Below, one piece after another: positions 1-21,392 of a DNA stretch of 64,000 nt (its first letter is position 1; each line of letters starts with the position of its first letter). The DNA comes from Winogradskyella sp. (GTDB taxonomy: Bacteria > Bacteroidota > Bacteroidia > Flavobacteriales > Flavobacteriaceae), in NCBI RefSeq assembly GCF_013002225.1, contig NZ_JABDKL010000061.1; one strand, 5' to 3'. Under the pieces are notes generated by a model. That model saw only the letters and a list, made by a program, of their open reading frames with translations, was not told the DNA's origin and made no database searches. Both the position numbers and the translations under genes were made by a program.

Positions 1-219
1 ATTAACCCTACTAAGAAGCGTATTTTGAAAACAGATCTTACTTTCTTCTTTTGCCGTTAAAGAATCACAACTACTAAACGTTGGATAAGCATCTACTTCA
101 TTCCAATTGAAGGTTTTTAATTCTTCTTCGAGTAAGTCATCCGAATAGACTTTTTGCTTTTCAAAATAATCGCAAGATGTTAGAAGCAAAAAAATAATAA
201 TCGAAACAATTCGGCTCAT
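1..219 (-). CDS. hypothetical lipoprotein, N-terminal part only (gene runs off the left edge)
   Basis: Not in the ORF track. ATG at 219-217 on the minus strand opens a frame reading MSRIVSIIIFLLLTSCDYFEKQKVYSDDLLEEELKTFNWNEVDAYPTFSSCDS... with no stop down to position 1. Signal peptide with lipobox-like LLTSC. Confidence 0.5.
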   Translation of the reverse strand, partial: MSRIVSIIIFLLLTSCDYFEKQKVYSDDLLEEELKTFNWNEVDAYPTFSSCDSLTAKEESKICFQNTLLSRVN

Positions 220-1083: not shown

Positions 1084-1752
1084 TTATAAATACCCTTTTT
1101 CTCGAGCTTCATGAAGAAGTGATTCGTCCTTACCATCAGACACAGAAAAGATTAACTTAAGTTGCTTTTTACGTTTTTCTAGCGCGCTAGTAGATAACGG
1201 TATATGCTCATTTAGACTTTTAGTTTTTACACCCTGTGACAATAAATGTAGAATTTTGCGATTAACATCATCTACATAAATCTCGCTTGTAATTGTCTTT
1301 TTAACGTAATTATTAACTGTGCTGCTATAATATGGTGGCGAATTTAAAATTTGCTGAAAAGCATCGGCCAATTCCATAGAGGTCAGATCACTTTTAATTA
1401 AAAAACCATCCGGATTAATTTCTTTTATAATATTATGAATTCTAAAAGATTCATTAAACATGGTAAGTATAATTATTTTAGCATTGGGTAACACGCGTTT
1501 TGCCAGAAGTGCCAAATCTTCTCCACTAGCAAATTTACCATCTTCGGAGGCCGGTAAACTAATATCAAAAAAGCACACATCGTAGGGTGTATCTTTTGAA
1601 GCTCTATTAATCATTAACTGAGCAGTATCACAATTATTTGCCGTGTCAATTAATAAGGTTTGATCGTCTTCCTTAGTAGCCATTAATACATTTTGGTAGC
1701 CTTCGATGATAATAGGGTGATCATCTACCATTAAAATATTAATATGTTTCAT
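1084..1752 (-). CDS. two-component response regulator, NarL/FixJ (LuxR HTH) family
   Basis: N-terminal receiver (ILMVDDHP..., FFDISLP) and C-terminal LuxR-type HTH region. 4-nt ATGA overlap with the upstream kinase gene. Confidence 0.85.
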   Translation of the reverse strand: MKHINILMVDDHPIIIEGYQNVLMATKEDDQTLLIDTANNCDTAQLMINRASKDTPYDVCFFDISLPASEDGKFASGEDLALLAKRVLPNAKIIILTMFNESFRIHNIIKEINPDGFLIKSDLTSMELADAFQQILNSPPYYSSTVNNYVKKTITSEIYVDDVNRKILHLLSQGVKTKSLNEHIPLSTSALEKRKKQLKLIFSVSDGKDESLLHEAREKGYL

Positions 1753-3779
1753 TCGGGTTGGTTTGTATAAGGTATTCTAACTTTTACAATAGTTCCATTA
1801 CCAGATTGAGATGAAAAGGAAATTTCTCCATTAACATCCTGAACACGCGAGGACATATTTTTTAAACCAATACCCTTTTTACTTTTGGTAGTATCAAATC
1901 CATCTCCGTCGTCGATAATGTCTAAGCAAATTACATCATTTTCTAAAGAAATGCTAATTTTAATGGTTTTGGCATTGGCATGCTTATATATATTTTGAAG
2001 GGACTCTTGAATAATCCTATAGATGTTAATTTTTGTTTTGTTAGAAACCAAATCCCAACTTACATCGTCTGTATAAATAAACTCTGATTTTAAACCATAG
2101 GCTATAGATTGGCTATCAATAAGTTCTGATACAATATTCATAAAACCTGTCCCAGAAACAAAATCTGTATTTAACTCATGAGAAATTTTACGTATGTCTT
2201 CCTCGATCAGTTTAAGTTGACTTATGTAATTTGCTCTTGTAAGCATAGCCTCCTTGCCGTCCTTAAAATTTATACTATCAAGACTCAGGCGCGTCCCAAA
2301 GAGACGACCTAAAACGCCATCGTGCAATTCTTCAGAAATTCTAGTTTTTTCTTTAGCTCTGGCTTCATCCACTCTATTTTGCTGGCCCAACATAAGATTG
2401 TAAATCTCCTCATTAGCTTCTTGCTGTAACTGGATAAGTTTTAATTTTCTGTTTTTTGCGCGTTGAGAAATTATGGCATAAATAAGAGCTGCTGTTAGCA
2501 ACAAACCGATTAAAAGAATAACTAAATAAAGATTTTCCTTAGATATCTGCTCATTTTCTGCTTCGAGCTGATCAGTCTCGAACTCAATGCGAGCATATTT
2601 ATTTCTAACGCTTCGTTCTACCCTAAGCAGACTATCTGTAAGTTTGATATGCTCTTGGAGAAAGGCTTTGCCTTTTTCTCCTTCAGTAACCTCAGATAAG
2701 ATTAAGAGTGCCTCTTGTTTTACTTCATTTGCAAATACGTCGTAAGAAATCTTAAGCGCTTCATTTGCGTACTTAGTTACTGAATCTTTCTGAGGAACTT
2801 TTTTATACAGTTTGGAAAGATGTAAGGCCACATTCATTCTTAAAACATCATCCTTGAGCTTATGGGTTAATTTGTAAGACTCTCTTAGCTTATTTTTTAC
2901 TGTATTAAAATCAAAGTTTCCAGATTCTAATTCAGTAGCCGCAATGTTTGTTAATATTGTTGGATAAAAGGAAGGGTCAACCTCTTCATATTTTGTTCTT
3001 AAGGCTAAAAGACTCCTATAGATGTCCTTAGCTTTATCAAAATCCTCAAGTTGTCGATAAACATAGGCTTTATTGTTGAGCGAATAGACTTCATTAACAA
3101 ATCCATCATTAATTTTTTTTGCATATGAATTTGACTGCTCATAATACTCCAAAGCTTTTTTATAGTTGCCTGACTCCCTAGAAATTATACCCATTAAATT
3201 GTAGGCATTCCATAATTTATCTAAACGATTTTGTGTTTCTGGTAGTCTATTTAAAATTATGATAGAGTTGATAGCTGCTTCTTCAGCTCCAGCATAAATT
3301 TTCTCTATTTGCAATATATCTGCCAAATAGAGAAACGCTGTTGCTTTTGACTCTGAAATCTCACTTGCAGGATAATATTTTAGTGCCTGAGAATAATAAT
3401 AATATGAACTATCATTTTGCTCATAATATCTATACATAGAGCCTAAGTTAGAACCAGCTACAGTTATGGCTGAAGAATCTTTGATTAATCTGGCAAGCTC
3501 GAAATTATCTCTATTTAATGCAATGTATTCATCATACATTTCAGACTCAAAATAGCGCACAGATAAATTTCTATTAGCCATAAGAATAATAGAATCTTGA
3601 TTTATTTGTCTAGCAATTTTGCTTGAAGTAAGAGCAAATTCTAACCTTTTATCAATTGAATAATTCTCTTCGTTTGATTTAACAATTAGACTATTGATTG
3701 AATCTAGTAAACTATTTTGAGCATTTACTGTTGATAAAAGTAGATGCAACATAAGGAATGCAAAAAATAGATTTCTCAT
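1749..3779 (-). CDS. sensor histidine kinase with N-terminal signal peptide, TPR-like repeats, one TM helix, and HisKA_3 + HATPase_c
   Basis: Repeated Y/A-rich TPR-like segments. TM helix LYLVILLIGLLLTAALIYAI. H-box ELHDGVLGRL. ATPase G-boxes DDGDGFD and GIGLKNM. Confidence 0.85.
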   Translation of the reverse strand: MRNLFFAFLMLHLLLSTVNAQNSLLDSINSLIVKSNEENYSIDKRLEFALTSSKIARQINQDSIILMANRNLSVRYFESEMYDEYIALNRDNFELARLIKDSSAITVAGSNLGSMYRYYEQNDSSYYYYSQALKYYPASEISESKATAFLYLADILQIEKIYAGAEEAAINSIIILNRLPETQNRLDKLWNAYNLMGIISRESGNYKKALEYYEQSNSYAKKINDGFVNEVYSLNNKAYVYRQLEDFDKAKDIYRSLLALRTKYEEVDPSFYPTILTNIAATELESGNFDFNTVKNKLRESYKLTHKLKDDVLRMNVALHLSKLYKKVPQKDSVTKYANEALKISYDVFANEVKQEALLILSEVTEGEKGKAFLQEHIKLTDSLLRVERSVRNKYARIEFETDQLEAENEQISKENLYLVILLIGLLLTAALIYAIISQRAKNRKLKLIQLQQEANEEIYNLMLGQQNRVDEARAKEKTRISEELHDGVLGRLFGTRLSLDSINFKDGKEAMLTRANYISQLKLIEEDIRKISHELNTDFVSGTGFMNIVSELIDSQSIAYGLKSEFIYTDDVSWDLVSNKTKINIYRIIQESLQNIYKHANAKTIKISISLENDVICLDIIDDGDGFDTTKSKKGIGLKNMSSRVQDVNGEISFSSQSGNGTIVKVRIPYTNQPE

Positions 3780-3839
3780 TAAAGGTTGACAATTTATATC
3801 AAAAATAGGTTAAAATTTGAGAATTAAAATTTGCTAAAC

Positions 3840-3870
3840 AAAAAAAGCCCTCATCTTAAAGTGAAGGCTT
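3840..3870 (-). terminator. terminator candidate after the small secreted peptide gene
   Basis: Imperfect hairpin AGCCCTCA...TGAAGGCT, followed on the minus strand by a 7-T run. Confidence 0.45.
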
Positions 3871-3893
3871 AAAATTATATAATAGAGGTAAGT

Positions 3894-4064
3894 CTATCCC
3901 TGAGTTTCTAATTTCAATTTCTTTTTGTCAATAGCGACTAAATTAGTTGGATTATATTCTTTAAAAGTTGGCTCATTTTCATTTACAACATTGTCTGATT
4001 GTACACCAGATACAGTTAAGAATAGTACTGCAACTAACATTAAAGTAATTTTTAGAGTTTTCAT
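3894..4064 (-). CDS. small secreted peptide precursor (56 aa), unknown function
   Basis: The track ORF is 3894..4136. The internal ATG at 4064 gives MKTLKITLMLVAVLFLTVSGVQS, a classical Sec signal, followed by a charged mature part of about 33 aa. The first 24 codons of the track ORF look non-coding. Confidence 0.4.
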   Translation of the reverse strand: MKTLKITLMLVAVLFLTVSGVQSDNVVNENEPTFKEYNPTNLVAIDKKKLKLETQG

Positions 4065-4298
4065 AAGTATCAATTTAGAGTTTAACAAATTTTTGTTTTG
4101 ATTAATTGTAACGATTGTCGCTACATTGAGGGACAATGTTGGTCAATTAATTTGTATTAGGATAAACCTAAAATTGTACTAAAAAAACGAGGGCTGTTTT
4201 AAAGACAAAATTTGTCTTTAGGCAATGAATTAAAAAATCGAATTTAAATCGAGAGGGATACCGAATATAGGCAGAATCACCTAACCCAAACAATATTA

Positions 4299-4377
4299 TC
4301 GTTGAAATGACATATTTCATCGACAAAATACATATTCAAAATGCTTTCATCGATGAAATACACCTGTTAAACCTGTT
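4299..4377. promoter_or_regulatory. cluster of operator-like palindromes and direct repeats
   Basis: TCGTTGAAAT-gacat-ATTTCATCGA (4299-4323). Perfect 14-bp palindrome TTTCATCGATGAAA (4345-4358). A 19-mer TTTCATCGAnnAAATACAn occurs at 4315 and 4345, 30 bp apart. ACCTGTT is repeated at 4362 and 4371. Confidence 0.4.
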
Positions 4378-4453
4378 TTTACTGTCACATTTTACTTGTT
4401 ATGAGTCACAAATATCAGTGCCAGAATGTAAACTTTAAGTCTTTTTAAGACGC

Positions 4454-5911
4454 TTAATTTAGGATTAAGTTAAGCGAAAAAACAGTTATTGATGTGGTAC
4501 CAGTACCTGTTAAACGCTGCCCCCAAATTTCTATATAATCATTTGGTGCCAATTCAACAGTTCCGTTAATACAATTACTGGAAATATCGGATGTATCGTT
4601 AACTCGCATTAATGTATTAGTTTCTGTTAGTAAGGTAGTGCCATTTTTTTTAATAAAAAATGCATAAAAATCGCCTACGCCAGAATTACCTCTTACCGAT
4701 AATGCAGCATTAACTTGGAAGGTTCTTGTTTTTTTACCAAGATAAGTAATACGATTATCCTGAGGAGATGAAGTTCTTAAGGAATTAACCAATGTTGTTG
4801 AATTGGCATTACTGTTACCTCTAAGATTTATTGGGCTTCCATTTGTAAAATCCTGAATAAAACCAGATGTAATAGTTCCATCATAATAAATATTACCTGT
4901 ACTTACCTCATCTGCCTCAACAGGTATTCCTGGACAATTTACAGTCCACGAGTTGGTGAAATTATAGTTTGGAAATGTATTTGTAGTATAAGGATTTACA
5001 TATTGTGTTGCTGTTCCATTAAAACTAACACCAGTTAACACTGCCGTAGAAACGGTAGGATTACTGCTAACATCAATCCCCACATTAGCCCCACTAACCG
5101 ACATAAACCCACCTTGTTTTTGAATAAACTTAAAGGTACCTGTATAAGTTTCATAACTACCACTATTGGAATCCTGCCAACCTATATTACTCAGTAATAG
5201 ATCTGTAATACTGTTAAACGTAATACCGCTTGTGTTATTTACATATTGCAACACCGAAAAATAAATTAAGTTAAAATTAGCAATAGTACCAATGTCATTA
5301 GAATTAACAACATTTGCGTCTTTAAACACAAGGTTTTCTGCACTTGTTCCGTTTAAATTAAATATCGTTCCTCCTGGTGCAGTCACCGTTATATTTTTAA
5401 TTACGCCACCTTTACTACCTTCGAACATTGTTCCTCCAACTTTTACTAAAATATCGTCCGAGGAATCAATACCTGTAATATAGGCATCGTTAATATCTAT
5501 GGGGTAGGCTAGACTTATGGTACCATTGATTTCATATACCACATCTGACGTTAGCAAGTATTTAGAACCACCTCCCGCAGTCAGTTCTTCGCTTAGATCT
5601 GCAACAGATTTAATAAGCTTATAATTCTCTCTTAAACTAGCGTCTACCTCTAACCAACCTGTAGATTTATAAAAATAAAAACCACTTAATGTTGTATCAT
5701 AAACTAACAATCCTTCTGCCGGACTAACTATGGCATTACGTTGTGTTGTAGTCATCCTTGGTGTTAACAATCCGCTTTCTGTAGAACTTATATCTAGGAT
5801 TGCAGAAGCATCAGGTATTGTAGTTCCAATACCAACCTGCGCGTAGGTAAATAATCCCAATAATAATATGACGAGACAGTTAATTTGTTTTTTTGTTTGT
5901 AGATTATTCAT
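4454..5911 (-). CDS. secreted protein of unknown function; N-terminal motif conserved in Bacteroidota surface or tail-fibre-like proteins, N/T/S/G-rich beta-rich core
   Basis: Signal peptide CLVILLLGLFTYAQ, then VGIGTTIPDASAILDISSTESGLLTPRMTTTQRNAI..PAEGLLVYDT. 485 aa with very few charged residues. No recognisable T9SS C-terminal domain. Confidence 0.65.
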   Translation of the reverse strand: MNNLQTKKQINCLVILLLGLFTYAQVGIGTTIPDASAILDISSTESGLLTPRMTTTQRNAIVSPAEGLLVYDTTLSGFYFYKSTGWLEVDASLRENYKLIKSVADLSEELTAGGGSKYLLTSDVVYEINGTISLAYPIDINDAYITGIDSSDDILVKVGGTMFEGSKGGVIKNITVTAPGGTIFNLNGTSAENLVFKDANVVNSNDIGTIANFNLIYFSVLQYVNNTSGITFNSITDLLLSNIGWQDSNSGSYETYTGTFKFIQKQGGFMSVSGANVGIDVSSNPTVSTAVLTGVSFNGTATQYVNPYTTNTFPNYNFTNSWTVNCPGIPVEADEVSTGNIYYDGTITSGFIQDFTNGSPINLRGNSNANSTTLVNSLRTSSPQDNRITYLGKKTRTFQVNAALSVRGNSGVGDFYAFFIKKNGTTLLTETNTLMRVNDTSDISSNCINGTVELAPNDYIEIWGQRLTGTGTTSITVFSLNLILN

Positions 5912-6011
5912 GATATGTAAAGGTTTGGTTGTATGTTAATTTATTAATTTGTGCATTAGGCTTTAACCAGTGCTGCTTAAGGGTAAATGAGGCTTTTAGT
6001 TTTTAAAGTTT

Positions 6012-6473
6012 TTAGAACAAAACAGGAACGAAGCTAAATGGCTGTACGCCTCTAGAACCTCTACTACTGGAATGTTTCTTTACCAGCTTTTCTATTTTCT
6101 CTTTTGTTAAGGGCTTATCTATGTAACCAGAGCAATACGCTTCTTTTTCCGCTCTTTGAATATCTTCCAGGTATAATGAAGAGGTGAGCATTATAATTTT
6201 TACATCTTTAGCTTTTGGTAGATTTAGGGCTTTATATTCTTCAATAAATTGAAATCCATCAATTTGTGGCATATTAATATCCAGTAAAATGACATCTGGC
6301 ATCACAATAGTCTCAGAGTTATGTTTTAAAGGACATATCTTAAGGTAGTTGAGTGCTGAAGTGGCGCTATTAAATGTCCTCACATTGATCTCTGAGTCGT
6401 ATTTCTCAATTATCTTTTGACTGACAAATAGATCTATTTTATTGTCATCGATTATAATGATGTTTTTAACCAT
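6012..6473 (-). CDS. stand-alone receiver (CheY-like) response regulator
   Basis: IIIIDDNKID..., DVILLDINMP, MLTSS and DKPL receiver signatures. No output domain. 6 nt downstream of the kinase gene. Confidence 0.85.
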   Translation of the reverse strand: MVKNIIIIDDNKIDLFVSQKIIEKYDSEINVRTFNSATSALNYLKICPLKHNSETIVMPDVILLDINMPQIDGFQFIEEYKALNLPKAKDVKIIMLTSSLYLEDIQRAEKEAYCSGYIDKPLTKEKIEKLVKKHSSSRGSRGVQPFSFVPVLF

Positions 6474-6479
6474 AATTAA

Positions 6480-8327
6480 TTATTTTAGATTGGGGATTTC
6501 TATTCTAAATGTTGTACCTATATTAAGTTCACTCTCTACATTTATGTGTCCAGAGAGATCATCTACAATACACTTTACGATATACAAGCCTAAGGCGCTT
6601 CCTTGAACTCCTTCGTTATTTACTCTGTAATACAGGTCAAATATTCTTTCTAAGTTTTCGTCACTAATACCTCTGCCATTATCCTTTATAAGAATATCTA
6701 AACTTTGGTGAGATTGAGATACATCTATAGTTATAGTAGGCAAATGAGATGCCTCTAACGGTTTACAGTAGTAAATTGCATTTTGGATAAGATTTTGAAG
6801 CATAGAATTGAACAAATCCTTATTTGAATAAAACCGAATATCCTCATTAACATTGATACAAAATTTAATCTCTTCAAAATTCTCTAGCGAGCTAAGTGCC
6901 TGTAATGTTTTATCTACTTCTTTATTAATATTAATAGAAGACACTTGGCACTTCTTTTGAGATATTACAGACGCAAACGATAAGTTATCTAACAAGAGTT
7001 TTCCTCTGTTTAAACTCACATCTAACATCTCTATAATATTTGAAATATGTTCCTGTTTATTCTCGTGTTTTATTAGATTTATTAAACCTTCTATGGTTGT
7101 TAAAGGCGCCTTAAGGTCGTGAGCTGCACGGTATAAAAACTGCTCTAGGTCTTCTGTTTTTTGCTGTAATTTATTTTCTAACGATTTTCTGTTAGATATA
7201 TCTAACATAATCGCAGAAAAATATCTGTCTTTACCACAATACCAGCTACTAACTGCAAACTCAACCGGAAACTTTTCTCCATTTTTTCGAACGCCTACCA
7301 TTTCTAGCGTATCGCCCTGAGCGCAATCTTCCAAATGGTCTTTTAGATACAGCAATTGTTGTATGCTTGTTTCCATATGTTCTTCTGCTATCAGCAGAGT
7401 CAATGACTGACCTAAAACCTCTTTTTCTGAATAACCAAAAGCTGATTCAGCACCTTGATTCCATTCTGAAATATTACCATTACTATCTGCTACAACGATA
7501 ATTCCAACGTTTATCGATTGGAAAATAGTACTGTATTTAGCTTCAATAGCTTTTAACTCACTAACAACTTTTATATCCTCTGTTCGTCGTTCTGTTGTTA
7601 CTTTTGCAAAGACAACTTCATTATAATTATTAAAAACAGGCTCAATTTCAGAAAAGTAAAGTGCCTTTTCTTTTTCAGATGCCTGAGAGGCAAACCTAAA
7701 CCCATTAATAGTCTGTAAATTAAAAACCTCTTTTATCTTAGACTTAACAGCAAAATGATACTCTTGTTCTATATAATCATAGATGTAAGAACCAACGATT
7801 TCATCAAATTCTACTTGTCTATATTCATTAAACGCTCTTAATATTTTACCGCGTTCATTGAGACTTAGAACAAGTTGAGGGAATTTTTTAACAATGGCTT
7901 TTTTACAGGTATCTAGTTCTTCCACTAAATGATCCTGGTGGTAATAATTAGTTATATCATTATAGAATGAAATATACTTTTCTATTGTTCCTTTTTTATT
8001 TTTTACAGGAACAACAGTAGTCTGTAACCAGTACTTATTAGACTTAGAAACATTATAAGGAAGTACTCCCGTCCAAACCTCACCATTTGTAATGGTGCCC
8101 CATAAATTCTTATATAAAGAATCTGAATGTAAGCGTGATTTTAGAATGGAACTTGTTTCCCCTATAATATTGTGCTTATTAACCCCTAATATTTTACAAT
8201 ACCCTTCGTTGACATCTTTAATCCGCTCGAAAGTATCTATAACAGCTACATTATGATGCGCATTAACAGCATCGTAAACTTGAGCTTTTTGATCAATATC
8301 AATATTTTTTAACTGTAGTGATTGCAT
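6480..8327 (-). CDS. cytoplasmic multi-PAS sensor histidine kinase
   Basis: No TM helix. PAS-like segments. H-box FLYRAAHDLKAPLTTI. ATPase boxes NLIQNAIYY, DNGRGIS and GSALGLYIV. Confidence 0.85.
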   Translation of the reverse strand: MQSLQLKNIDIDQKAQVYDAVNAHHNVAVIDTFERIKDVNEGYCKILGVNKHNIIGETSSILKSRLHSDSLYKNLWGTITNGEVWTGVLPYNVSKSNKYWLQTTVVPVKNKKGTIEKYISFYNDITNYYHQDHLVEELDTCKKAIVKKFPQLVLSLNERGKILRAFNEYRQVEFDEIVGSYIYDYIEQEYHFAVKSKIKEVFNLQTINGFRFASQASEKEKALYFSEIEPVFNNYNEVVFAKVTTERRTEDIKVVSELKAIEAKYSTIFQSINVGIIVVADSNGNISEWNQGAESAFGYSEKEVLGQSLTLLIAEEHMETSIQQLLYLKDHLEDCAQGDTLEMVGVRKNGEKFPVEFAVSSWYCGKDRYFSAIMLDISNRKSLENKLQQKTEDLEQFLYRAAHDLKAPLTTIEGLINLIKHENKQEHISNIIEMLDVSLNRGKLLLDNLSFASVISQKKCQVSSININKEVDKTLQALSSLENFEEIKFCINVNEDIRFYSNKDLFNSMLQNLIQNAIYYCKPLEASHLPTITIDVSQSHQSLDILIKDNGRGISDENLERIFDLYYRVNNEGVQGSALGLYIVKCIVDDLSGHINVESELNIGTTFRIEIPNLK

Positions 8328-8734
8328 TACAAATCATCTTTATAGGTTAAACAATACTGTTTAGCAGTCTCAAAATCTTTAAAGATTCTGTATGGCGTTT
8401 CTGATTCATATATTCTCTTGTAGGAGTGAACTAATAGTGTTGTGTTTATTGAATTAGATACGAACGCCTCACATAATCTTATCTTATTTAAAGCAGGGCT
8501 GTCTGCTAATAATTTTGCAATTTCTGTAGAAAATGTTCCCAAAGTAGATTGCATGTCTATTATAAAAGGAATAGGCTTACCCTCCGAAAGCGTATAGATG
8601 GCATCTACATATTGGCTCAGTCTCTCTTTTGCATTTAACTTAATAGCCTTAGTATTTAAGATCTGGCAGAATAAGATACCGTGTTCTGTCCAAAACTTAA
8701 CGGTATCAAATTCAATTAGCAATGTGTTATTCAT
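8327..8734 (-). CDS. 135-aa protein of unknown function, first gene of the sigma54-driven operon (possibly a STAS/SpoIIAA-like fold)
   Basis: Its TAA stop overlaps the kinase ATG by 1 nt (TAATG). Alternating beta/alpha pattern. No catalytic motifs recognised. The fold assignment is a guess. Confidence 0.6.
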   Translation of the reverse strand: MNNTLLIEFDTVKFWTEHGILFCQILNTKAIKLNAKERLSQYVDAIYTLSEGKPIPFIIDMQSTLGTFSTEIAKLLADSPALNKIRLCEAFVSNSINTTLLVHSYKRIYESETPYRIFKDFETAKQYCLTYKDDL

Positions 8735-8768
8735 AGATTAAAAATGTATTTCAACGATAAGATTAATG

Positions 8769-8783
8769 GCAAGCCCTGTGCCA
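8769..8783 (-). promoter_or_regulatory. sigma54 (-24/-12) promoter
   Basis: Minus strand reads TGGCAC AGGGC TTGC with exact GG-N10-GC spacing. The TTGC lies 35 nt upstream of the ATG at 8734, and the adjacent upstream gene encodes a sigma54 activator. Confidence 0.8.
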
Positions 8784-8874
8784 CAACTTCAAAAAATGAA
8801 AAAATAAATTTCTAAAAGCCTGAATATCATACACTTAAATTGGAGTGCTGAATTTTTGTTGAATTTGATAATAA

Positions 8875-8925
8875 CGGAATACCGTTAGTGATTAAGAATC
8901 TCAAAGCCATTCTGCGGAATACCGT
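8875..8925 (-). promoter_or_regulatory. pair of putative enhancer (UAS) sites for the sigma54 activator
   Basis: Identical 11-mers CGGAATACCGT at 8875-8885 and 8915-8925 (plus-strand reading), exactly 40 bp apart, each with a CGG-N4-CCG dyad. They lie about 95 and 135 bp upstream of the -24 element. Confidence 0.55.
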
Positions 8926-8927
8926 GG

Positions 8928-11900
8928 TTAGCTTTTCTTAATGCCTAACTTTTTTATGCGATCTCTTAATGTACTTGGTTTTATCTGAAGTAGTTGCGAG
9001 GCTCCATTATCGCCTTCTATTTTCCAATTGCACTGACTAAGTATTTTTTCTATGTGCAACCGTTGTACATCGTTTAGACTAAGTACTGATTTAGAAATTG
9101 AAGTTTCTTTTGAGTCAGACACAAAGCCAGGAACAAATAGTGTCTCTGCATTAGACAGAATTACGGCGCGCTCTATTAAATTTTCTAACTCTCTTATATT
9201 TCCTGGCCAATGATAATTCTGTAAGGCCAATTTAGTGTCTTGAGGTATAAACTTTATGGTTTTATTATACTTCTTGCCAAACCTATTAACAAAATGTTCT
9301 ATTAAAATAGGAATGTCTTCTGTGCGTTCTCTTAATGGTGGCACAGTAACCGGGAAAACATTTATTCTAAAATATAGATCTTCTCTAAAATTATTTTTAT
9401 CAATTTCAGCTTTTAAATCTCTATTGGTAGCGGTAATAATTCTAATATCAACTTTTTCTGTTTTAGTACTGCCAATAGATTCTATTTCACCCTCTTGAAT
9501 GGCGCGCAACAATTTTGGTTGCATATCGATTGGTAATTCGCCAATTTCATCTAAAAACAGCGTGCCACCATCTGCTAGTTTAAATTTCCCATCCTTGTCA
9601 CTAAATGCTCCTGTAAACGATCCTTTTGTATGGCCAAACAACTCACTTTCAATAAGTTCTTTTGGTATTGCCGCACAATTTACCTTAATAAGTGGCTTAT
9701 CTTTTCTATTACTTATGTTGTGAATAGCTCTTGCCAAAAGCTCCTTACCTGTACCAGATTCACCAAGCAAGAGCACAGTGGCATCAGTAACTGCAACGGT
9801 TTCAATATCTGTTAGTACATCACTAAATGCAGCACTCCCATAAACCATTTCCTCATAGTTAAAAGCGAGATCCAACTCTTCTTTTAAATAGACGTTTTGT
9901 TTTTCTAATTCTCTTTTTAAATCTGTAAGCTCTTTGTTTACCTGAATTAATTTTTCATTAGATTCTAACAGGTTATTTTCTGCTTTTGTTCTTTCACGGG
10001 TCTCTATCATTAAAGATATAATTGTCGCGACTGAAGCTGCAAAGTTTTCTTCTTCGCTCGTAAACACTCTATCTTGTACAGCACACTCAAAACTTAAAAT
10101 TCCGTAGCGTCTATTTTTACTGAAAATTGCCGCATCGAGTTTGCACCCATTTACATTTAAGGCTTTAAGCGCTTTCGCATATTTTATCGTTCTTGGATCT
10201 TCTTTTATATTAGGTATACTTAAAAGGGAATTACTTTTCAGCGCTTTAAAGTAATCTGGCATTTCCGTTTCACTTAAAACTAAATCATTGTCAATTTGAG
10301 TTGTTTTATCTGTATCGAAGAATAAATTCCCATGTATTCTACTTTGATCATCATTAAACTTCCAGATTATAATGGTATTAATATTTAATGCCTTAGATGC
10401 TAGTTGCGTTATTTTTTTGATAACCGTGTTATAATCCTGTCCTATTAAGGTAACCATTGTAGAAATAGCATCCTTTCGTTGTTTAGATAACCTAGCCGCT
10501 TCCCTTAATGCCTTAGCTTCTGATTTGCGCTTCGTAATATCATTGATCGTGGTAAAATATGCAATGGTTTCGCCATCATTGTTCTTTACAGAGGATAGTG
10601 CTAAAGAAACCGGAAACCGCGTACCGGTTTTAGTCATATACCAAAATTCTTTAATATTTTTTCCCCAATGATCTCTTTGCTTAAAAACATTAAAAAATTT
10701 GTCATGGTCTTCGGGAGGCCAGTATTTAAATGGCGGTTTTGAACCTACAAGTTCTTCTTCTGTAAACCCCGTCATTTCACAAAGTGCCTTATTAACCCTT
10801 ATACTTTCTCCTTTAGGATTTACAACAGATAGCCCTTCTTGTAGAGAATTTAATAGCTCTTCAGAAAATTCTTTTTCAAGTATTAAGTTTGTTTCAACTT
10901 TTTTTCGCTGGTTATTTTCGACTGCCAGAGACACAATACTTGCAATAGTTGTAGCAAATTGCTCCTCGGCTGATGTCCATTTTCTTTTTTCGCCTATTTG
11001 TTCAAAACAAATAACACCAAATGGCTTTTCTACGCCACTAATAAAAACATCTAGCATGGATGTAATACCAAAGTCCGAAAGATAATCGCTGGCTAATTCT
11101 TTAGTAATTCTATTATGATAGACATCATCTATTTTAAGGGTCTTTCTTTTATATAAAGCTTTAAAATAAGACGGGTAATTCTCAGAATGCAACGTGAGCG
11201 TATCTACAAATTTGTTAGTCTCTAAATTATAGGCATTAATACAGTGAATTGCAGTTTCGTCCTCATTAAATTTCCACAAACTTACACGTGCCACCTCCAG
11301 CACGTTTGATGACGTTGAAGTTATTGTTTTTAAAATATCATCGAAATCAGAACCAATGAGGTTTACTAATTTTATAATAGCATCTCTGTTAACTTCTGCC
11401 TTTTCCGATTTTTCCTTTAATTCATTCTGATACTTAATGCGTTCTGAAATATCAATGATGGTAGATACATAACCAATAATTTCATTTTTATGATTGGTAA
11501 TTTTAGCTGAAGCTGCAGCGACCTCAAATCGATCACCATTTGCCTTTTTAAAAATAAGCTGATCCCTATCAAAAACACCATCTAATCCAAGCTTTACATA
11601 CTTTCTAAATTTTTCATATTGCTCAGGTGGCCAGTGCGGAAAGGGCTGCTTAGTCCCCACAATATCCGATTCTTTAAAACCTGTTAACTCGGTATAAGCT
11701 TTATTAACACGTATACAGGTTAAATTAGCGTCCAATACTATTAAACCTTCATACATACTATCTAAGAGTCGGTCAGAAAAATTCTTGGTTATATACAGTT
11801 CATTTTCTGTGTTTTTAAGCGCGCTTATATCTAAAATTGAGGATTGTACATAGGCACTACCTTGAAGTTGGATAAACTGAAAAGTTGCCAGTCCGTAAGT

Positions 11901-12215
11901 TTTTAAACCATCTTTTCTTAACACCTCAATTTCATGAGATTTAAAAACTTGCTTTTCTGTTAACACCTCTCTAATAGAATCTGCTTCTTTAAAAGAAATG
12001 AGCTTTAATTCTTCAACCGTTTTACCAACAACATCTTTACGTTTGTATCCTGTAAATTTTTCCCACGACTCATTGACATCTACTAATTTTCTATCCTTTT
12101 TATTTGAAAGTGTGTGTGGCGTAGGGTTATTATGAAATATTTTAGCATATGGGCTATTCTGTGCAAATACAGTTTGTGAAGATTTTTCGATATGGTCGCC
12201 CTTATTACTTTTCAT
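8928..12215 (-). CDS. sigma54-dependent transcriptional activator (bEBP): PAS, PAS-GAF, PAS-GAF, AAA+, Fis-type HTH; no receiver domain
   Basis: Walker A GESGTGKE. ELFGHTKGSFTGA (GAFTGA-loop variant). Walker B TLFLDEIGE. WPGNIRELEN. C-terminal HTH ASQLLQIKPSTLRDRIKKLGI. The N-terminal 790 aa contain an internally duplicated PAS-GAF module. Confidence 0.9.
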   Translation of the reverse strand: MKSNKGDHIEKSSQTVFAQNSPYAKIFHNNPTPHTLSNKKDRKLVDVNESWEKFTGYKRKDVVGKTVEELKLISFKEADSIREVLTEKQVFKSHEIEVLRKDGLKTYGLATFQFIQLQGSAYVQSSILDISALKNTENELYITKNFSDRLLDSMYEGLIVLDANLTCIRVNKAYTELTGFKESDIVGTKQPFPHWPPEQYEKFRKYVKLGLDGVFDRDQLIFKKANGDRFEVAAASAKITNHKNEIIGYVSTIIDISERIKYQNELKEKSEKAEVNRDAIIKLVNLIGSDFDDILKTITSTSSNVLEVARVSLWKFNEDETAIHCINAYNLETNKFVDTLTLHSENYPSYFKALYKRKTLKIDDVYHNRITKELASDYLSDFGITSMLDVFISGVEKPFGVICFEQIGEKRKWTSAEEQFATTIASIVSLAVENNQRKKVETNLILEKEFSEELLNSLQEGLSVVNPKGESIRVNKALCEMTGFTEEELVGSKPPFKYWPPEDHDKFFNVFKQRDHWGKNIKEFWYMTKTGTRFPVSLALSSVKNNDGETIAYFTTINDITKRKSEAKALREAARLSKQRKDAISTMVTLIGQDYNTVIKKITQLASKALNINTIIIWKFNDDQSRIHGNLFFDTDKTTQIDNDLVLSETEMPDYFKALKSNSLLSIPNIKEDPRTIKYAKALKALNVNGCKLDAAIFSKNRRYGILSFECAVQDRVFTSEEENFAASVATIISLMIETRERTKAENNLLESNEKLIQVNKELTDLKRELEKQNVYLKEELDLAFNYEEMVYGSAAFSDVLTDIETVAVTDATVLLLGESGTGKELLARAIHNISNRKDKPLIKVNCAAIPKELIESELFGHTKGSFTGAFSDKDGKFKLADGGTLFLDEIGELPIDMQPKLLRAIQEGEIESIGSTKTEKVDIRIITATNRDLKAEIDKNNFREDLYFRINVFPVTVPPLRERTEDIPILIEHFVNRFGKKYNKTIKFIPQDTKLALQNYHWPGNIRELENLIERAVILSNAETLFVPGFVSDSKETSISKSVLSLNDVQRLHIEKILSQCNWKIEGDNGASQLLQIKPSTLRDRIKKLGIKKS

Positions 12216-12535: not shown

Positions 12536-12609
12536 CGGTCTGGACGGGACTCGAACCCGCGACCTTCGCCGTGACAGGGCGACATTCTAACCAGCTGAAC
12601 TACCAGACC
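12536..12609 (-). tRNA. tRNA-Asp (anticodon GTC)
   Basis: Reverse complement reads GGTCTGGTAGTTCAGCTGGTTAGAATGTCGCCCTGTCACGGCGAAGGTCGCGGGTTCGAGTCCCGTCCAGACCG. It has a 7-bp acceptor stem, D-loop AGTTCAGCTGGTTAGAA, anticodon loop CTGTCAC and T-arm GGTTCGAGTCC. No CCA is encoded. Confidence 0.95.
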
Positions 12610-18723: not shown

Positions 18724-19173
18724 TTAAGCTGAGACAGCTTCAAAATTTTCTGCTTTACTTATTGTTGCCTCAATGGAATTTCGCTGCTTTCTCAAAATAT
18801 TAGTTATTGAGATCGGCATACTAGCGTTAGACAACATCTCATTGTATTCTTCCAAACTGGACTTTTCTCCCCTTAAGGTTTCTTCTAACATAGCTTCCTC
18901 ATTATTTGATGAGAATGCAGCCTTAAGCGACATCCAATTCCTATGAATTTCTCCAGTTATGTTGCCTGAATTTTCTGGAATTTCTCCAGTTCCCCAGACT
19001 TCGGCTCTAAGTTCTTTTACAAATCGCGCACGTTCTTCTGCACAATGCTTAAAAAAACTTTTTACTTCTGAGTTTTCAACTTTATCAATGGCCTTGGAAT
19101 AACCCTCCTTAGCATTCATGTTTTTTTCTATTAATTCGTTTAATCTATTTGATATTTCTTTTTCGTACTTCAT
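18724..19173 (-). CDS. PA2169/DUF2383-family four-helix-bundle (ferritin-like) protein, paralog 1
   Basis: 149 aa. Has the EGY..AIDKV....VK.FF......ER..F..EL and HRNWMSLKA.FSSNNEEA pattern typical of this family. Confidence 0.7.
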   Translation of the reverse strand: MKYEKEISNRLNELIEKNMNAKEGYSKAIDKVENSEVKSFFKHCAEERARFVKELRAEVWGTGEIPENSGNITGEIHRNWMSLKAAFSSNNEEAMLEETLRGEKSSLEEYNEMLSNASMPISITNILRKQRNSIEATISKAENFEAVSA

Positions 19174-19254: not shown

Positions 19255-19704
19255 TTAGGAGACTAATTCTTCATGTACCTTTTCAGTGTTAATTGCCGCT
19301 TGTATTGCATTACGATGTTTTATTAATAAGGCATCAATACTTGGTGGCAAGTTTCTTTCTTCTAGCAGATCATTGTACAACTCCAGACTAGACTCTTCTC
19401 CTCTAATAGCTTCTTCTAATATAGCTTCTTCGTTATTTGAAGAAAATGTTGCTTTTAAACTCATCCAATTTCTATGGGCGGCGCCCTTAAAGCTGCCAGA
19501 GTCTTCTGGCAATTGTCCGTATTGTAATATTTCTGTTCTTAACTCTTTAGCAAATTGACTGCGTTCTGAGGCCATCCGTTTAAAAAACATCTTTACCCTT
19601 TTACTATCTACATTATCAATAGCGTTTAAATAACCCTTTTCGGCGTCATAATTTTTAACTAATAAATCGTTTAATTTGTTTGAAATTTCTTCTCTATACT
19701 CCAT
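19255..19704 (-). CDS. PA2169/DUF2383-family four-helix-bundle protein, paralog 2
   Basis: 149 aa and colinear with paralog 1 without gaps. About half the positions are identical by eye. Confidence 0.7.
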   Translation of the reverse strand: MEYREEISNKLNDLLVKNYDAEKGYLNAIDNVDSKRVKMFFKRMASERSQFAKELRTEILQYGQLPEDSGSFKGAAHRNWMSLKATFSSNNEEAILEEAIRGEESSLELYNDLLEERNLPPSIDALLIKHRNAIQAAINTEKVHEELVS

Positions 19705-21346: not shown

Positions 21347-21392
21347 CGCCCTCATTAATAACAGAGGTCGAGAACCTCACTAATTAATTATT

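What the first reader, a model, noticed from the sequence alone, without database searches (positions are those of the whole stretch)
3894..12215. Candidate undescribed sigma54-wired sensory/secretory locus (activator, unknown-HK-REC operon, tail-fibre-like protein, small peptide)
This is the only accessory-looking block in the window. Six co-directional minus-strand genes start with a receiver-less PAS/GAF sigma54 activator and its visible target promoter. The promoter drives a 135-aa unknown protein, a soluble PAS kinase and a single-domain receiver. After only 100 bp, with no convincing terminator, comes a 485-aa secreted protein of unknown function. A 317-bp palindrome-rich spacer and a 56-aa secreted peptide gene follow, then a clear terminator at about 3840-3870. 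A second kinase/LuxR pair (1084-3779) sits immediately downstream. None of the output genes has an assignable function, and the kinase has no DNA-binding partner. The logic, a cytoplasmic signal leading to sigma54-dependent expression of a phosphorelay plus extracellular proteins, does not match a system I can name.
Basis: partly seen in the sequence, partly recalled or inferred. Interest (0 to 1): 0.65.

Follow-up and report, generated by a model that had tools for sequence, protein, structure and literature searches.

The report
Sigma-54 operon plus separate peptide-signalling module
The block holds two separate conserved flavobacterial modules of unknown function: a sigma-54 switch driving a small signalling operon that ends in a secreted phage-tailspike-like protein, and next to it a small secreted-peptide gene with a long structured RNA leader that belongs to the neighbouring kinase/regulator pair.

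Summary
Comparison with about 80 genome loci and 120 metagenome loci splits the block into two modules.

Module 1 (8928-12215 and 4454-8927): a receiver-less PAS/GAF sigma-54 activator, two palindromic upstream sites, and a -24/-12 promoter. The promoter drives an operon of DUF7793 (STAS/SpoIIAA-like fold), a PAS histidine kinase, a single-domain receiver, and a 485-aa exported protein (PF26696). That protein is modelled as a tailspike-like beta-helix with a C1q/TNF-like head. The module is conserved in at least 10 Flavobacteriaceae genera. Gene order varies, but the 485-aa gene stays behind the activator-dependent promoter.

Module 2 (1084-4362): the "palindrome-rich spacer" is the promoter and roughly 195-nt leader of the peptide gene. 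The leader has hairpins with strong covariation and no Rfam match. Leader and peptide always travel with the downstream TPR kinase/LuxR pair, with or without module 1.

The output function of both modules remains unknown. I rate this a new variant of known kinds, of moderate interest.

The parts
8928..12215 (-). Module 1: sigma-54 enhancer-binding activator (PAS-PAS-GAF-PAS-GAF, AAA+, C-terminal HTH), without a receiver domain
   Evidence: Pfam Sigma54_activat E=1e-70, AAA_lid_14, 3 PAS and 2 GAF. NCBIfam alignments run to the C-terminal HTH of NifA/FhlA-type models. GSFTGA loop and GESGTGKE Walker A are read directly from the translation.
8913..8926 (-). UAS1: palindrome CACGGTATTCCGCA, starting 2 nt after the activator's stop codon
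   Evidence: An exact 11-nt repeat with UAS2, 40 bp apart. The same site is at +0..11 nt after the activator stop in most orthologous loci. Motif background is 0.05 per kb. There is no other pair in the window.
8873..8886 (-). UAS2: palindrome AACGGTATTCCGTT
   Evidence: The second site is at +39..48 in orthologous loci.
8768..8783 (-). Sigma-54 type -24/-12 promoter TGGCACagggcTTGCC, about 98 bp downstream of UAS2 and 34 nt before the DUF7793 ATG
   Evidence: An equivalent TTGGCAY-N5-TTGG/TGGC element lies 30-58 nt upstream of DUF7793 genes in nearly all related loci, at +134..157 after the activator stop.
8327..8734 (-). DUF7793 protein (135 aa) with a STAS/SpoIIAA-like fold; first gene of the operon
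   Evidence: Pfam PF25056 E=1.7e-9. AF2 model pLDDT 88.5. Foldseek matches RsbS, SiaC, STAS 4xs5, DUF3478 and SpoIIAA. Profile hit to 3bl4, E=9e-5.
6480..8327 (-). Soluble PAS-PAS histidine kinase; its start overlaps the DUF7793 stop
   Evidence: Pfam PAS, HisKA and HATPase_c. H-box AAHDLKAPL is read from the translation.
6012..6473 (-). Single-domain response regulator (receiver only)
   Evidence: Pfam Response_reg E=2e-17. DD, D65, T96 and K120 positions are read from the translation.
4454..5911 (-). Exported 485-aa protein (PF26696 'PTL_trimer'): signal peptide, conserved N-terminal motif, beta-helix, C1q/TNF-like C-terminal domain; last gene of the operon
   Evidence: About 2000 homologues, 55-70% identical across genera, carrying precomputed PF26696. 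AF2 model. Foldseek against PDB and BFVD. The gene follows the receiver or a T9SS-cargo gene by -4..107 nt in relatives.
4313..4362 (-). Module 2: two ATCGAT-core boxes upstream of the peptide promoter (candidate regulator sites)
   Evidence: Repeats. The boxes are conserved in genome and metagenome loci.
4262..4269 (-). Module 2: -7 promoter box TATATTCG (Bacteroidetes consensus TAnnTTTG)
   Evidence: A conserved column block in alignments A2 and A5. In a relative the RNA contig starts 12 nt after the equivalent box.
4065..4255 (-). Module 2: roughly 195-nt 5' leader of the peptide gene, with hairpins P1-P4 separated by conserved boxes (TTAATCCATT, TCCCTC, AACCCTAAAT). The covariance-model match is at 4106-4233.
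   Evidence: 104 bits; 93% of cells paired against 67% shuffled; 18 of 19 pairs with compensatory changes. No Rfam family matches.
3894..4064 (-). Module 2: 56-aa secreted peptide precursor (MKTLKITL... signal peptide, basic C-terminal motif ending in QG)
   Evidence: Conserved in 9 genome-derived loci and about 54 metagenome loci, always after the leader.
3845..3870 (-). Intrinsic terminator of the peptide transcript
   Evidence: Equivalent hairpins with T-runs follow the peptide gene in relatives.
1749..3779 (-). Module 2: sensor kinase with signal peptide, TPR region, one transmembrane segment, HisKA_3 and HATPase_c
   Evidence: Pfam. It follows the peptide gene in all 38 metagenome loci with enough downstream sequence and in the genome loci.
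1084..1752 (-). Module 2: receiver plus NarL/LuxR-type regulator
   Evidence: Pfam Response_reg. NCBIfam full-length similarity to NarL/RcsB-type regulators, below cut-offs.

Best explanation
The block holds two adjacent but independent regulatory modules conserved in marine Flavobacteriaceae.

Module 1. The PAS/GAF activator (8928-12215) is made from its own promoter. By inference it binds the two CACGGTATWCCGTG palindromes just after its stop codon. On a cytoplasmic signal sensed by its PAS/GAF domains, it activates the sigma-54 promoter at 8783-8768. This yields one transcript encoding DUF7793, the PAS kinase, the receiver and the 485-aa exported protein.

DUF7793 has a STAS fold and is always the first gene behind the activator. 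I infer that it is a feedback partner of the activator, or of the kinase, in the manner of a partner-switch or anti-activator protein. The kinase and receiver add a second, phosphorylation-based layer with a non-transcriptional output.

The 485-aa protein is the effector. It is Sec-exported and is probably a trimer, with a tailspike-like beta-helix and a C1q/TNF-like head. The most plausible roles are a surface or periplasmic glycan-binding or glycan-cleaving fibre. In most relatives it is translationally coupled to a T9SS-secreted 650-aa partner that this genome lacks at the locus.

Module 2. The peptide gene has its own promoter (ATCGAT boxes and a -7 box), a roughly 195-nt structured leader and its own terminator. 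It forms a fixed trio with the TPR sensor kinase and the LuxR-type regulator. I infer that the exported peptide acts on the periplasmic TPR domain, that the regulator feeds back on the ATCGAT boxes, and that the leader adds post-transcriptional control.

Shown: the gene content, folds, motifs, synteny, covariation, and separate transcription in a relative. Inferred: all binding partners, all signals and both output functions.
For: Domains.

Promoter and upstream sites: the promoter and UAS pair are unique in the window. Their geometry is conserved in about 25 activator loci: UAS at +0..11 and +39..48, -24 element at +134..157, motif background 0.05 per kb.

Synteny: activator-DUF7793-kinase-receiver-(650-aa T9SS cargo)-PF26696 occurs in about 27 loci from at least 10 genera. 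Rearranged versions in Lacinutrix and Olleya still place PF26696 directly behind the activator's UAS and promoter. The gaps before PF26696 are -4 to 107 nt.

Folds: STAS fold for DUF7793. Tailspike beta-helix plus TNF/C1q head for PF26696. The T9SS C-terminal domain is on the 650-aa partner only.

Module 2: the peptide gene sits directly upstream of the TPR kinase in all genome loci that have it, even where other genes separate it from PF26696. 54 of 120 metagenome hits to one leader box are followed by an MKxLKIT peptide ORF. All 38 with enough downstream sequence have the kinase next. Hairpin segments fold better than shuffles, with mean z of -1.4 to -3.4. On the covariance-model alignment 93.1% of cells pair against 67.0% when shuffled, 18 of 19 pairs show compensatory changes, and slid controls give 35-50%.

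RNA: in RNA-seq contigs of a close relative of L007, leader plus peptide form a discrete 394-nt contig at depth 17. PF26696 is at about 4, the kinase at 3-6, and the sigma-54 operon at 0-5. The activator is at 16.5.
Against: There are no transcript data for this organism; only DNA runs hold it. The RNA evidence comes from unstranded assembled contigs of a relative, whose depth is a poor measure of expression.

The window has no clear terminator between PF26696 and the peptide promoter, so read-through cannot be excluded. The -12 element in many relatives reads TTGG/TGGC rather than TTGC. rpoN was not looked for.

The PF26696 model is of moderate quality (mean pLDDT 62, C-terminal domain about 50) and whole-chain TM-scores are low. 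The trimer state is inferred. PF26696 paralogues in other genera sit in a different neighbourhood with no such promoter, so the family is not intrinsically sigma-54 dependent.

A Cytophagaceae genome has tandem DUF7793 genes without an activator. No RsbW-type kinase or PP2C phosphatase lies near DUF7793.

The covariation counts were made on an alignment fitted to the model, which favours the structure.
Confidence: 0.72

Rival explanations
1. The whole six-gene block, peptide included, is one sigma-54-wired unit. Transcription from 8783 runs through to the terminator at 3845-3870.
For: All genes are co-directional. The window shows no convincing terminator after the PF26696 stop. One low-depth RNA contig in a relative crosses the PF26696-leader boundary (X12 contig 11511-11790).
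Against: The peptide has its own conserved -7 box and upstream boxes. Close relatives have a strong terminator right after PF26696. The peptide, leader and TPR kinase/LuxR occur together in 38 or more loci without the sigma-54 genes. They stay together when other genes separate them from PF26696. The leader-plus-peptide contig is discrete and about 4 times deeper than PF26696.
Confidence: 0.08
2. PF26696 is only a neighbour. It is transcribed from its own promoter in the 100-bp gap and is functionally unrelated to the activator/DUF7793/kinase/receiver genes.
For: The window has a 100-bp gap. PF26696 paralogues in Aequorivita, Leeuwenhoekiella and others live in another neighbourhood without the activator.
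Against: In relatives the gap is -4 to 11 nt, or PF26696 follows the 650-aa gene by 2 nt. In Lacinutrix the gene lies directly after the activator's UAS pair and -24/-12 element. No TAnnTTTG box is visible in the window's gap (read directly). RNA depth of PF26696 in a relative is as low as that of the kinase and receiver.
Confidence: 0.1
3. The conserved hairpins and boxes upstream of the peptide gene act at the DNA level, as an array of protein-binding palindromes, and not as a structured RNA.
For: The boxes TTAATCCATT and TCCCTC are nearly invariant, as operator half-sites would be. The ATCGAT boxes further upstream are very probably DNA sites.
Against: The stems keep pairing while their sequences change completely between lineages: 18 of 19 pairs have compensatory changes, and 140 double-change cells are seen against 32 expected. 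The region lies downstream of the -7 box and is present in an RNA contig together with the peptide ORF.
Confidence: 0.15
4. PF26696 is a remnant of a prophage, or a component of a phage-tail-like particle, and not a cellular effector.
For: Fold matches are to phage tailspike depolymerases and to phage proteins with a C1q head.
Against: There are no phage genes in the neighbourhood in 80 loci. There is no PHROG match. The protein has a Sec signal peptide and is 55-70% identical across genera in a fixed chromosomal context.
Confidence: 0.04

Closest known systems
PspF/PspA and NifA/NifL type circuits (receiver-less sigma-54 activators controlled by a partner protein)
   Same: The activator has no receiver domain. 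Two upstream sites precede a -24/-12 promoter. The first gene of the target operon is a small cytoplasmic protein that always accompanies the activator, which is the position PspA holds in the psp operon (own knowledge of the psp and nif systems).
   Different: The partner here has a STAS fold and is not a PspA coiled coil or a NifL flavoprotein. The activator carries its own PAS/GAF sensors. No interaction has been shown. The operon output is a phosphorelay plus an exported protein.
STAS partner-switching modules (RsbR/S/T stressosome, SpoIIAA/AB, SiaABCD)
   Same: The DUF7793 model matches RsbS, SiaC and SpoIIAA. Ser/Thr occupies the N-cap of helix 2 in 43 of 60 members. It is adjacent to an ATP-dependent kinase.
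   Different: No RsbW/SpoIIAB-type serine kinase or PP2C phosphatase lies in the locus. The neighbour is a classical HisKA kinase. Sequence similarity to Pfam STAS families falls below detection.
Phage tailspike depolymerases and C1q/TNF-headed fibres (Klebsiella phage K2 tailspikes; BclA/BxpB/ExsFA exosporium proteins)
   Same: A right-handed beta-helix core followed by a jelly-roll head of TNF/C1q type. Such proteins are trimers (own knowledge).
   Different: This is a cellular, Sec-exported protein in a chromosomal operon. It has no phage-particle adaptor domain, no PHROG hit and no identified catalytic residues. Its N-terminal 70-aa motif is specific to the family.
FimS/FimR of Porphyromonas gingivalis and other Bacteroidetes TPR-HisKA_3 kinases with NarL-type regulators
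   Same: The kinase architecture is signal peptide, periplasmic TPR, one membrane span, then HisKA_3/HATPase. There is a weak NCBIfam match to the FimS model (E=9e-10, far below cut-off).
   Different: Here the pair is always preceded by a small secreted-peptide gene with a long structured leader. No fimbrial genes lie nearby.
Peptide signalling with TPR receptors in Firmicutes (RNPP family: Rap, NprR, PlcR, PrgX)
   Same: A small exported peptide is encoded next to a TPR-containing regulator of transcription (own knowledge of RNPP systems).
   Different: RNPP receptors are cytoplasmic and bind re-imported peptides. Here the TPR domain is predicted to be periplasmic and part of a histidine kinase. 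No processing or import genes are linked, and binding is untested.
Rfam cis-regulatory leaders of Flavobacteria (for example the S16-Flavobacteria leader found at 21354-21388)
   Same: A conserved 5' leader with hairpins supported by covariation and conserved single-stranded boxes.
   Different: No Rfam 15 family matches the leader in the window or in two canonical relatives. It is much longer, with four hairpins, and precedes a signal-peptide ORF.

Membership tests
Bacterial enhancer-binding protein (sigma-54 activator) | AAA+ sigma-54 interaction domain with Walker A and the GAFTGA loop | tested here: met
   PF00158 E=1e-70. GESGTGKE and GSFTGA are read in the translation.
Bacterial enhancer-binding protein (sigma-54 activator) | C-terminal DNA-binding HTH | tested here: met
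   NCBIfam alignments extend to the last residues of FhlA and PEP-CTERM regulator models. HTH_8 is detected in the Lacinutrix orthologue. Pfam HTH_8 itself was not reported for the window protein at E<=0.01.
Bacterial enhancer-binding protein (sigma-54 activator) | A -24 GG / -12 GC promoter with upstream activator sites at a target operon | tested here: met
Bacterial enhancer-binding protein (sigma-54 activator) | rpoN present in the genome; transcription dependent on it | not tested
   rpoN was not searched for in the window. Dependence needs genetics.
Two-component system (HisKA kinase with receiver) | H-box histidine, N/G boxes in the kinase; acidic pocket, phospho-Asp, Thr and Lys in the receiver | tested here: met
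   Pfam HisKA, HATPase_c and Response_reg. Residues are read from the translations. Phosphotransfer itself cannot be tested here.
STAS / anti-sigma-antagonist partner-switch proteins | STAS (SpoIIAA-like) fold | tested here: met
   AF2 pLDDT 88.5. Foldseek probability 1.0 to RsbS, SiaC, 4xs5 and SpoIIAA, with TM 0.5-0.67.
STAS / anti-sigma-antagonist partner-switch proteins | Conserved phosphorylatable Ser/Thr at the start of helix 2 | tested here: inconclusive
   The S69 column holds S in 35 and T in 8 of 60 sequences.
STAS / anti-sigma-antagonist partner-switch proteins | Cognate GHKL serine kinase (RsbW/SpoIIAB type) and PP2C phosphatase encoded nearby | tested here: not met
   Neither is in the window locus nor in about 27 related loci.
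Phage tailspike / tail fibre | Beta-helix and/or trimeric head fold | tested here: met
   The model is confident only for residues 100-300.
Phage tailspike / tail fibre | Encoded in a phage or prophage with virion genes; sequence membership in a phage protein family | tested here: not met
   No phage genes in the neighbourhoods. No PHROG hit.
T9SS cargo | C-terminal sorting domain (Por_Secre_tail or type B) | tested here: not met
   No hit for the 485-aa protein in Pfam or NCBIfam. The 650-aa partner in relatives does have it.
Pfam PF26696 (PTL_trimer) | Match to the family model | tested here: inconclusive
   The collection's precomputed annotation assigns PF26696 to this protein and all listed homologues. 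The local Pfam copy lacks the model, so I could not rerun it.
Any Rfam family (for the peptide leader) | Covariance-model match | tested here: not met
RNPP-type peptide signalling | Cytoplasmic TPR receptor that binds a re-imported processed peptide | tested here: not met
   The TPR region lies between a signal peptide and the single membrane span of a histidine kinase, so it would be periplasmic. Peptide binding cannot be tested here.

The most novel reading that the evidence does not exclude
The leader-peptide-TPR kinase-LuxR trio may be a peptide-based signalling circuit of marine Flavobacteriaceae. In this reading the exported roughly 33-aa peptide (or the lipopeptide variant) is sensed by the periplasmic TPR domain of the adjacent kinase. 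Peptide production would be gated by a previously undescribed four-hairpin riboregulatory leader. Next to it, a domesticated tailspike-like trimer would be deployed under sigma-54 control, with a STAS protein as anti-activator.
Probability: 0.15. Interest if true: 0.8.

Novelty: new variant of a known kind. Interest (0 to 1): 0.5.

Why it matters
Sigma-54 regulons are little studied in Bacteroidota. Here a complete activator, binding-site and promoter triplet can be read from sequence and is conserved across genera. That gives a direct handle on two protein families of unknown function, DUF7793 and PF26696.

PF26696 has about 2000 members in marine Flavobacteriaceae, which are key degraders of algal polysaccharide. 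A regulated, tailspike-like exported trimer could bear on surface attachment, glycan processing or phage interactions.

The neighbouring module offers a candidate new structured RNA with strong covariation support. It also offers a peptide plus TPR-kinase pairing that could be tested as cell-cell signalling. To my knowledge no peptide signalling of this kind has been described in this phylum.

Tried and rejected
Searches that found nothing:
- Literature: PTL_trimer, DUF7793, PF25056 and PF26696 gave no papers. Searches on sigma-54, Flavobacteriia and T9SS gave nothing specific.
- PHROGs and PADLOC gave no informative hits.
- Rfam gave nothing for the spacer or leader.

Steps that failed or gave little:
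- RNAalifold on plain MAFFT alignments found only hairpin P2 or nothing, because the stems are too diverged for sequence alignment. I replaced it with per-segment folding and a covariance-model realignment.
- The word-indexed search with DUF7793 found almost nothing. The exhaustive search found 107 cluster representatives.
- Look-ups of P0101 and P0087 were not on record.

Ideas considered and dropped:
- A second sigma-54 promoter at TGGCACtgataTTTGT just after the PF26696 stop (about 4424-4408). The -12 spacing is off by one, and the element is not conserved in relatives.
- A shared ligand for the kinase and activator PAS domains. They are only 24-26% identical.
- A sigma-54 promoter before PF26696 paralogues in the other genomic context. 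None was found.

Full report
OBSERVATION. The 1095-aa protein has three PAS and two GAF domains, a Sigma54_activat AAA+ domain (E=1e-70) and an AAA lid, but no receiver. NCBIfam alignments to NifA/FhlA-type models run to its C-terminal helix-turn-helix. GESGTGKE and the GAFTGA-variant GSFTGA are visible in the translation.

The 135-aa protein is a DUF7793 member. The 615-aa protein is PAS-PAS-HisKA-HATPase_c with no membrane segment. The 153-aa protein is a bare receiver with the canonical acidic pocket, Asp, Thr and Lys. The 485-aa and 56-aa products have signal peptides and no hit in the local Pfam or NCBIfam libraries. The terminator at 3870-3845 and the repeats in the spacer are real. The window comes from a beach-sand metagenome bin, and no RNA run holds it.

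THE ACTIVATOR AND ITS TARGET. TGGCACagggcTTGCC at 8783-8768 lies 34 nt before the DUF7793 start. It is the only TGGCAY-N5-TKGC in 64 kb. Two palindromes sit 40 bp apart and start 2 nt after the activator's stop codon: CACGGTATTCCGCA at 8926-8913 and AACGGTATTCCGTT at 8886-8873. The second lies about 98 bp upstream of the -24 element.

This geometry recurs in related genomes. In about 25 loci that encode an orthologous activator, the motif CGG[TA]A[TA]NNCG is found at +0..11 and +39..48 nt after the stop, and a GGCAY-N(4-6)-T[TG]G[CG] element at +134..157. The motif's density over 1.54 Mb of flanks is 0.05 per kb, and roughly half of all its occurrences are these sites. In many relatives the -12 element reads TTGG or TGGC instead of TTGC. 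The window has the canonical form. That the palindromes are the activator's own sites is an inference from position and co-conservation.

CO-CONSERVATION. The 485-aa protein has about 2000 homologues. Across Winogradskyella, Sediminibacter, Xanthomarina, Bizionia, Olleya, Lacinutrix, Psychroserpens, Aequorivita and other genera they are 55-70% identical to it. All listed homologues are annotated in the collection with PF26696 'PTL_trimer'.

I fetched 80 genome loci around such genes, mapped the window proteins on them and clustered all ORFs. In about 27 loci from at least 10 genera the gene lies in the arrangement activator - DUF7793 - PAS kinase - receiver - [650-aa protein] - PF26696. The 650-aa protein carries a T9SS C-terminal sorting domain. 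Its stop is 2 nt from the PF26696 start in about 20 loci. The window, Sediminibacter and a few others lack it, and there PF26696 follows the receiver by -4 to 107 nt.

Lacinutrix and Olleya show rearranged forms. One is (REC-)activator - DUF7793 - 650-aa - PF26696 - DUF7793 - DUF7793 (- kinase - receiver). Another is activator - PF26696 - DUF7793 - DUF7793 - kinase - receiver. In the latter, the UAS pair and the -24/-12 element stand directly between the activator and PF26696. So PF26696 stays behind the activator-dependent promoter whatever the gene order. This is the strongest argument that it is a true output.

A second set of loci (Aequorivita, Leeuwenhoekiella, Altibacter and others, often paralogues at 42-57% identity) has PF26696 in an unrelated conserved neighbourhood. 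There it lies next to a 98-aa thioredoxin-like gene, with no such promoter. The family is therefore not intrinsically sigma-54 dependent.

The window block itself lies in a synteny (DnaE - Trx - DUF58 - module 1 - module 2) shared with several genera. It is not an accessory island.

DUF7793. An exhaustive search finds only 107 cluster representatives, nearly all stand-alone proteins of about 135 aa. A profile of 60 members hits one solved structure of unknown function, 3bl4 (E=9e-5). The AlphaFold model is confident (pLDDT 88.5). It matches RsbS, SiaC, a Dyadobacter STAS protein, a DUF3478 SpoIIAA-like protein and SpoIIAA (probability about 1, TM 0.5-0.67).

The residue at the N-cap of helix 2 (S69) is the position phosphorylated in SpoIIAA-type proteins (own knowledge). 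It is Ser or Thr in 43 of 60 members. No RsbW-type kinase or PP2C phosphatase is linked. A Cytophagaceae bin has two tandem DUF7793 genes with no activator. I therefore describe DUF7793 as STAS-like in fold and probably in mode of action (protein-protein switching), but not as a member of the classical partner-switch systems.

THE 485-aa PROTEIN. The signal peptide ends ...TYA|QVGIG. A Gln at +1 is typical of Bacteroidota exported proteins (own knowledge). The model (mean pLDDT 62) is confident for residues 100-300, a right-handed beta-helix. It is weaker for the C-terminal roughly 100 residues, a jelly roll.

Foldseek finds Klebsiella-phage tailspike depolymerases for the helix (E about 5e-5). 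For the head it finds TNF/C1q-like proteins: BxpB, ExsFA, CD40L and EDA. In BFVD the best matches are phage proteins of the same two-part build, including 'C1q domain' and 'pectate lyase superfamily' proteins (best E=3e-16).

There is no PHROG or PADLOC hit, no T9SS sorting domain, and no phage gene nearby. The trimeric state and any glycan-directed activity are inferences from the fold class.

THE SPACER AND THE PEPTIDE BELONG ELSEWHERE. Homologues of the peptide (MK[TAS]LKIT..., cleavage near VSG|Q, basic C-terminal motif) lie directly upstream of the TPR kinase/LuxR pair in every genome locus that has the pair. This holds even where a DUF2254 gene or others separate them from PF26696.

The 330 nt upstream of the peptide gene are conserved as an ordered set of elements:
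- two ATCGAT-core boxes;
- a TAnnTTTG box, which is the Bacteroidetes -7 promoter consensus (own knowledge);
- a roughly 195-nt leader in which four hairpins (P1-P4) alternate with nearly invariant single-stranded boxes: TTAATCCATT, TCCCTCRT, TTAATWATCCATT..TCCCTCRA and AACCCTAAAT.

A metagenome scan with one box returned 120 loci. In 54 of them an MKxLKIT peptide ORF follows within 50-90 nt, including a second, lipobox-bearing peptide class. All 38 loci with enough downstream sequence have the TPR kinase next, usually followed by the LuxR-type regulator. The sigma-54 genes are nearby in only a few.

The segments between the boxes fold better than shuffles, with mean z of -1.96, -3.42, -2.21 and -1.42 for P1 to P4. 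Their stem sequences differ completely between lineages. I built a covariance model from 15 sequences covering P2-P4. It finds 38 instances, the window's at 4233-4106 with 104 bits.

On that alignment 93.1% of cells pair against 67.0 +/- 1.2% when shuffled (0 of 500 shuffles reach the observed value). 18 of 19 pairs show compensatory changes. 140 double-change cells are seen against 32 expected, and slid controls give 35-50%. The alignment was fitted to the model, which favours the structure, but the margin is large. No Rfam 15 family matches.

RNA EVIDENCE FROM A RELATIVE. RNA-seq contigs of an organism 95-99% identical to the Winogradskyella ouciana locus (L007) show the following:
- The activator lies on one contig at depth 16.5.
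- The sigma-54 operon has only fragments at depth 0-5, with none over DUF7793.
- A discrete 394-nt contig at depth 17.2 starts 12 nt after the predicted -7 box and ends just past the peptide stop.
- PF26696 (3.9) and the TPR kinase (3-6) on either side are lower.

This fits a constitutive activator, an uninduced operon that includes PF26696, and an independent leader-plus-peptide transcript. Contigs are unstranded and their depth is crude, so this evidence is supportive and not decisive.

MECHANISM, WITH STATUS OF EACH STEP.

Module 1:
- Signal perception by PAS/GAF domains (inferred).
- Binding to the two palindromes (inferred).
- Sigma-54 open-complex formation at 8783-8768 (inferred from motifs).
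- One transcript from DUF7793 to PF26696 (inferred from overlaps, gaps, synteny and RNA depth).
- DUF7793 feeds back on the activator or modulates the kinase (hypothesis by analogy with PspA/PspF and STAS switches).
- The kinase phosphorylates the receiver, which acts on a non-DNA target (inferred from domains).
- PF26696 is exported and acts as a trimeric fibre or enzyme, together with a T9SS cargo in most genera (hypothesis).

Module 2:
- The LuxR-type regulator acts on the ATCGAT boxes (hypothesis).
- The leader controls stability or translation of the peptide message (hypothesis).
- The exported peptide is sensed by the periplasmic TPR domain (hypothesis).

COMPARISON AND NOVELTY. Each regulator belongs to a well-known family, and the membership tests for enhancer-binding protein and two-component proteins are met. 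The combination appears undescribed: a sigma-54 activator, a STAS-like first gene, a kinase, a receiver and a tailspike-like exported protein. I found it neither in the family libraries nor in the paper library. I file it as a new variant of a known kind.

The leader is a candidate new RNA family, and the peptide/TPR-kinase pairing is a candidate new signalling arrangement.

LIMITS. There is no functional assay and no transcript data for this organism. rpoN was not checked. The PF26696 model is only moderately confident. Synteny sampling was seeded on PF26696, so activator or DUF7793 loci that lack it are under-sampled.

Noticed in passing
window 4065-4269 (minus strand); L005, L007, L008, L010, L014, L016, L031, L035 and about 54 metagenome loci among L087-L206: A candidate new structured 5' leader of about 195 nt. 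It has four hairpins with compensatory changes and nearly invariant boxes (TTAATCCATT, TCCCTC, AACCCTAAAT), lies upstream of small signal-peptide ORFs, and matches no Rfam family.
   Followed up: yes
window 1084-4064; metagenome loci L091-L204: The peptide gene, TPR-HisKA_3 kinase and LuxR-type regulator form a fixed trio. A second peptide class with a lipobox (MKALKITL..TSCTKQDLNEDD) uses the same leader and the same kinase/regulator pair. This may be a peptide-sensing circuit.
   Followed up: partly
window 4313-4362: Two ATCGAT-core boxes (TTTCATCGATGAAA type) about 30 bp apart, upstream of the peptide's -7 box and conserved across genera. They are candidate binding sites for the adjacent LuxR-type regulator.
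   Followed up: partly
L003-L011, L013-L016, L018, L019, L022, L031, L035, L081 (the gene just upstream of the match at about 10001): A roughly 650-aa protein with a T9SS C-terminal sorting domain precedes PF26696 by 2 nt in most relatives, suggesting translational coupling. It is absent from the window, where only an unrelated T9SS cargo at about 36200-36490 shares the sorting domain.
   Followed up: partly
L028-L082 (Aequorivita, Leeuwenhoekiella, Altibacter and others): PF26696 paralogues, sometimes in tandem, sit in a different conserved neighbourhood. This comprises an unidentified ~410-aa protein with a hydrophobic N-terminus (ORF cluster c5), a 98-aa thioredoxin-like protein without the CxxC motif, and on the opposite strand ~215-aa and ~1100-aa proteins (clusters c2, c3); I ran no domain search on any of them. 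No sigma-54 promoter is present.
   Followed up: partly
L003-L035 promoters upstream of DUF7793: In many relatives the -12 element reads TTGGCA or TGGCA rather than TTGCA, with the -24 TGGCAY kept. This may be a lineage-specific variant of the sigma-54 -12 box.
   Followed up: no
L012, L013, L015, L018, L020, L022, L025, L072, L081: Orthologous activators in Lacinutrix and Olleya are 1240-2260 aa, carry an N-terminal receiver and up to seven PAS domains, and are preceded by an extra kinase/receiver pair. The same output module is thus wired to different inputs.
   Followed up: partly
L083 6602-7371: A Cytophagaceae bin has two tandem DUF7793 genes with no activator, kinase or PF26696 nearby.
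   Followed up: no
window 12536-12609 (minus) and 21354-21388 (plus): A tRNA gene with its own terminator (12524-12501) lies just upstream of the activator gene. An S16-Flavobacteria ribosomal-protein leader (Rfam RF03138) lies elsewhere in the window.
   Followed up: no
window 18724-19173 and 19255-19704 (minus): Two tandem paralogous 149-aa ORFs lie downstream of dnaE. I did not examine them.
   Followed up: no
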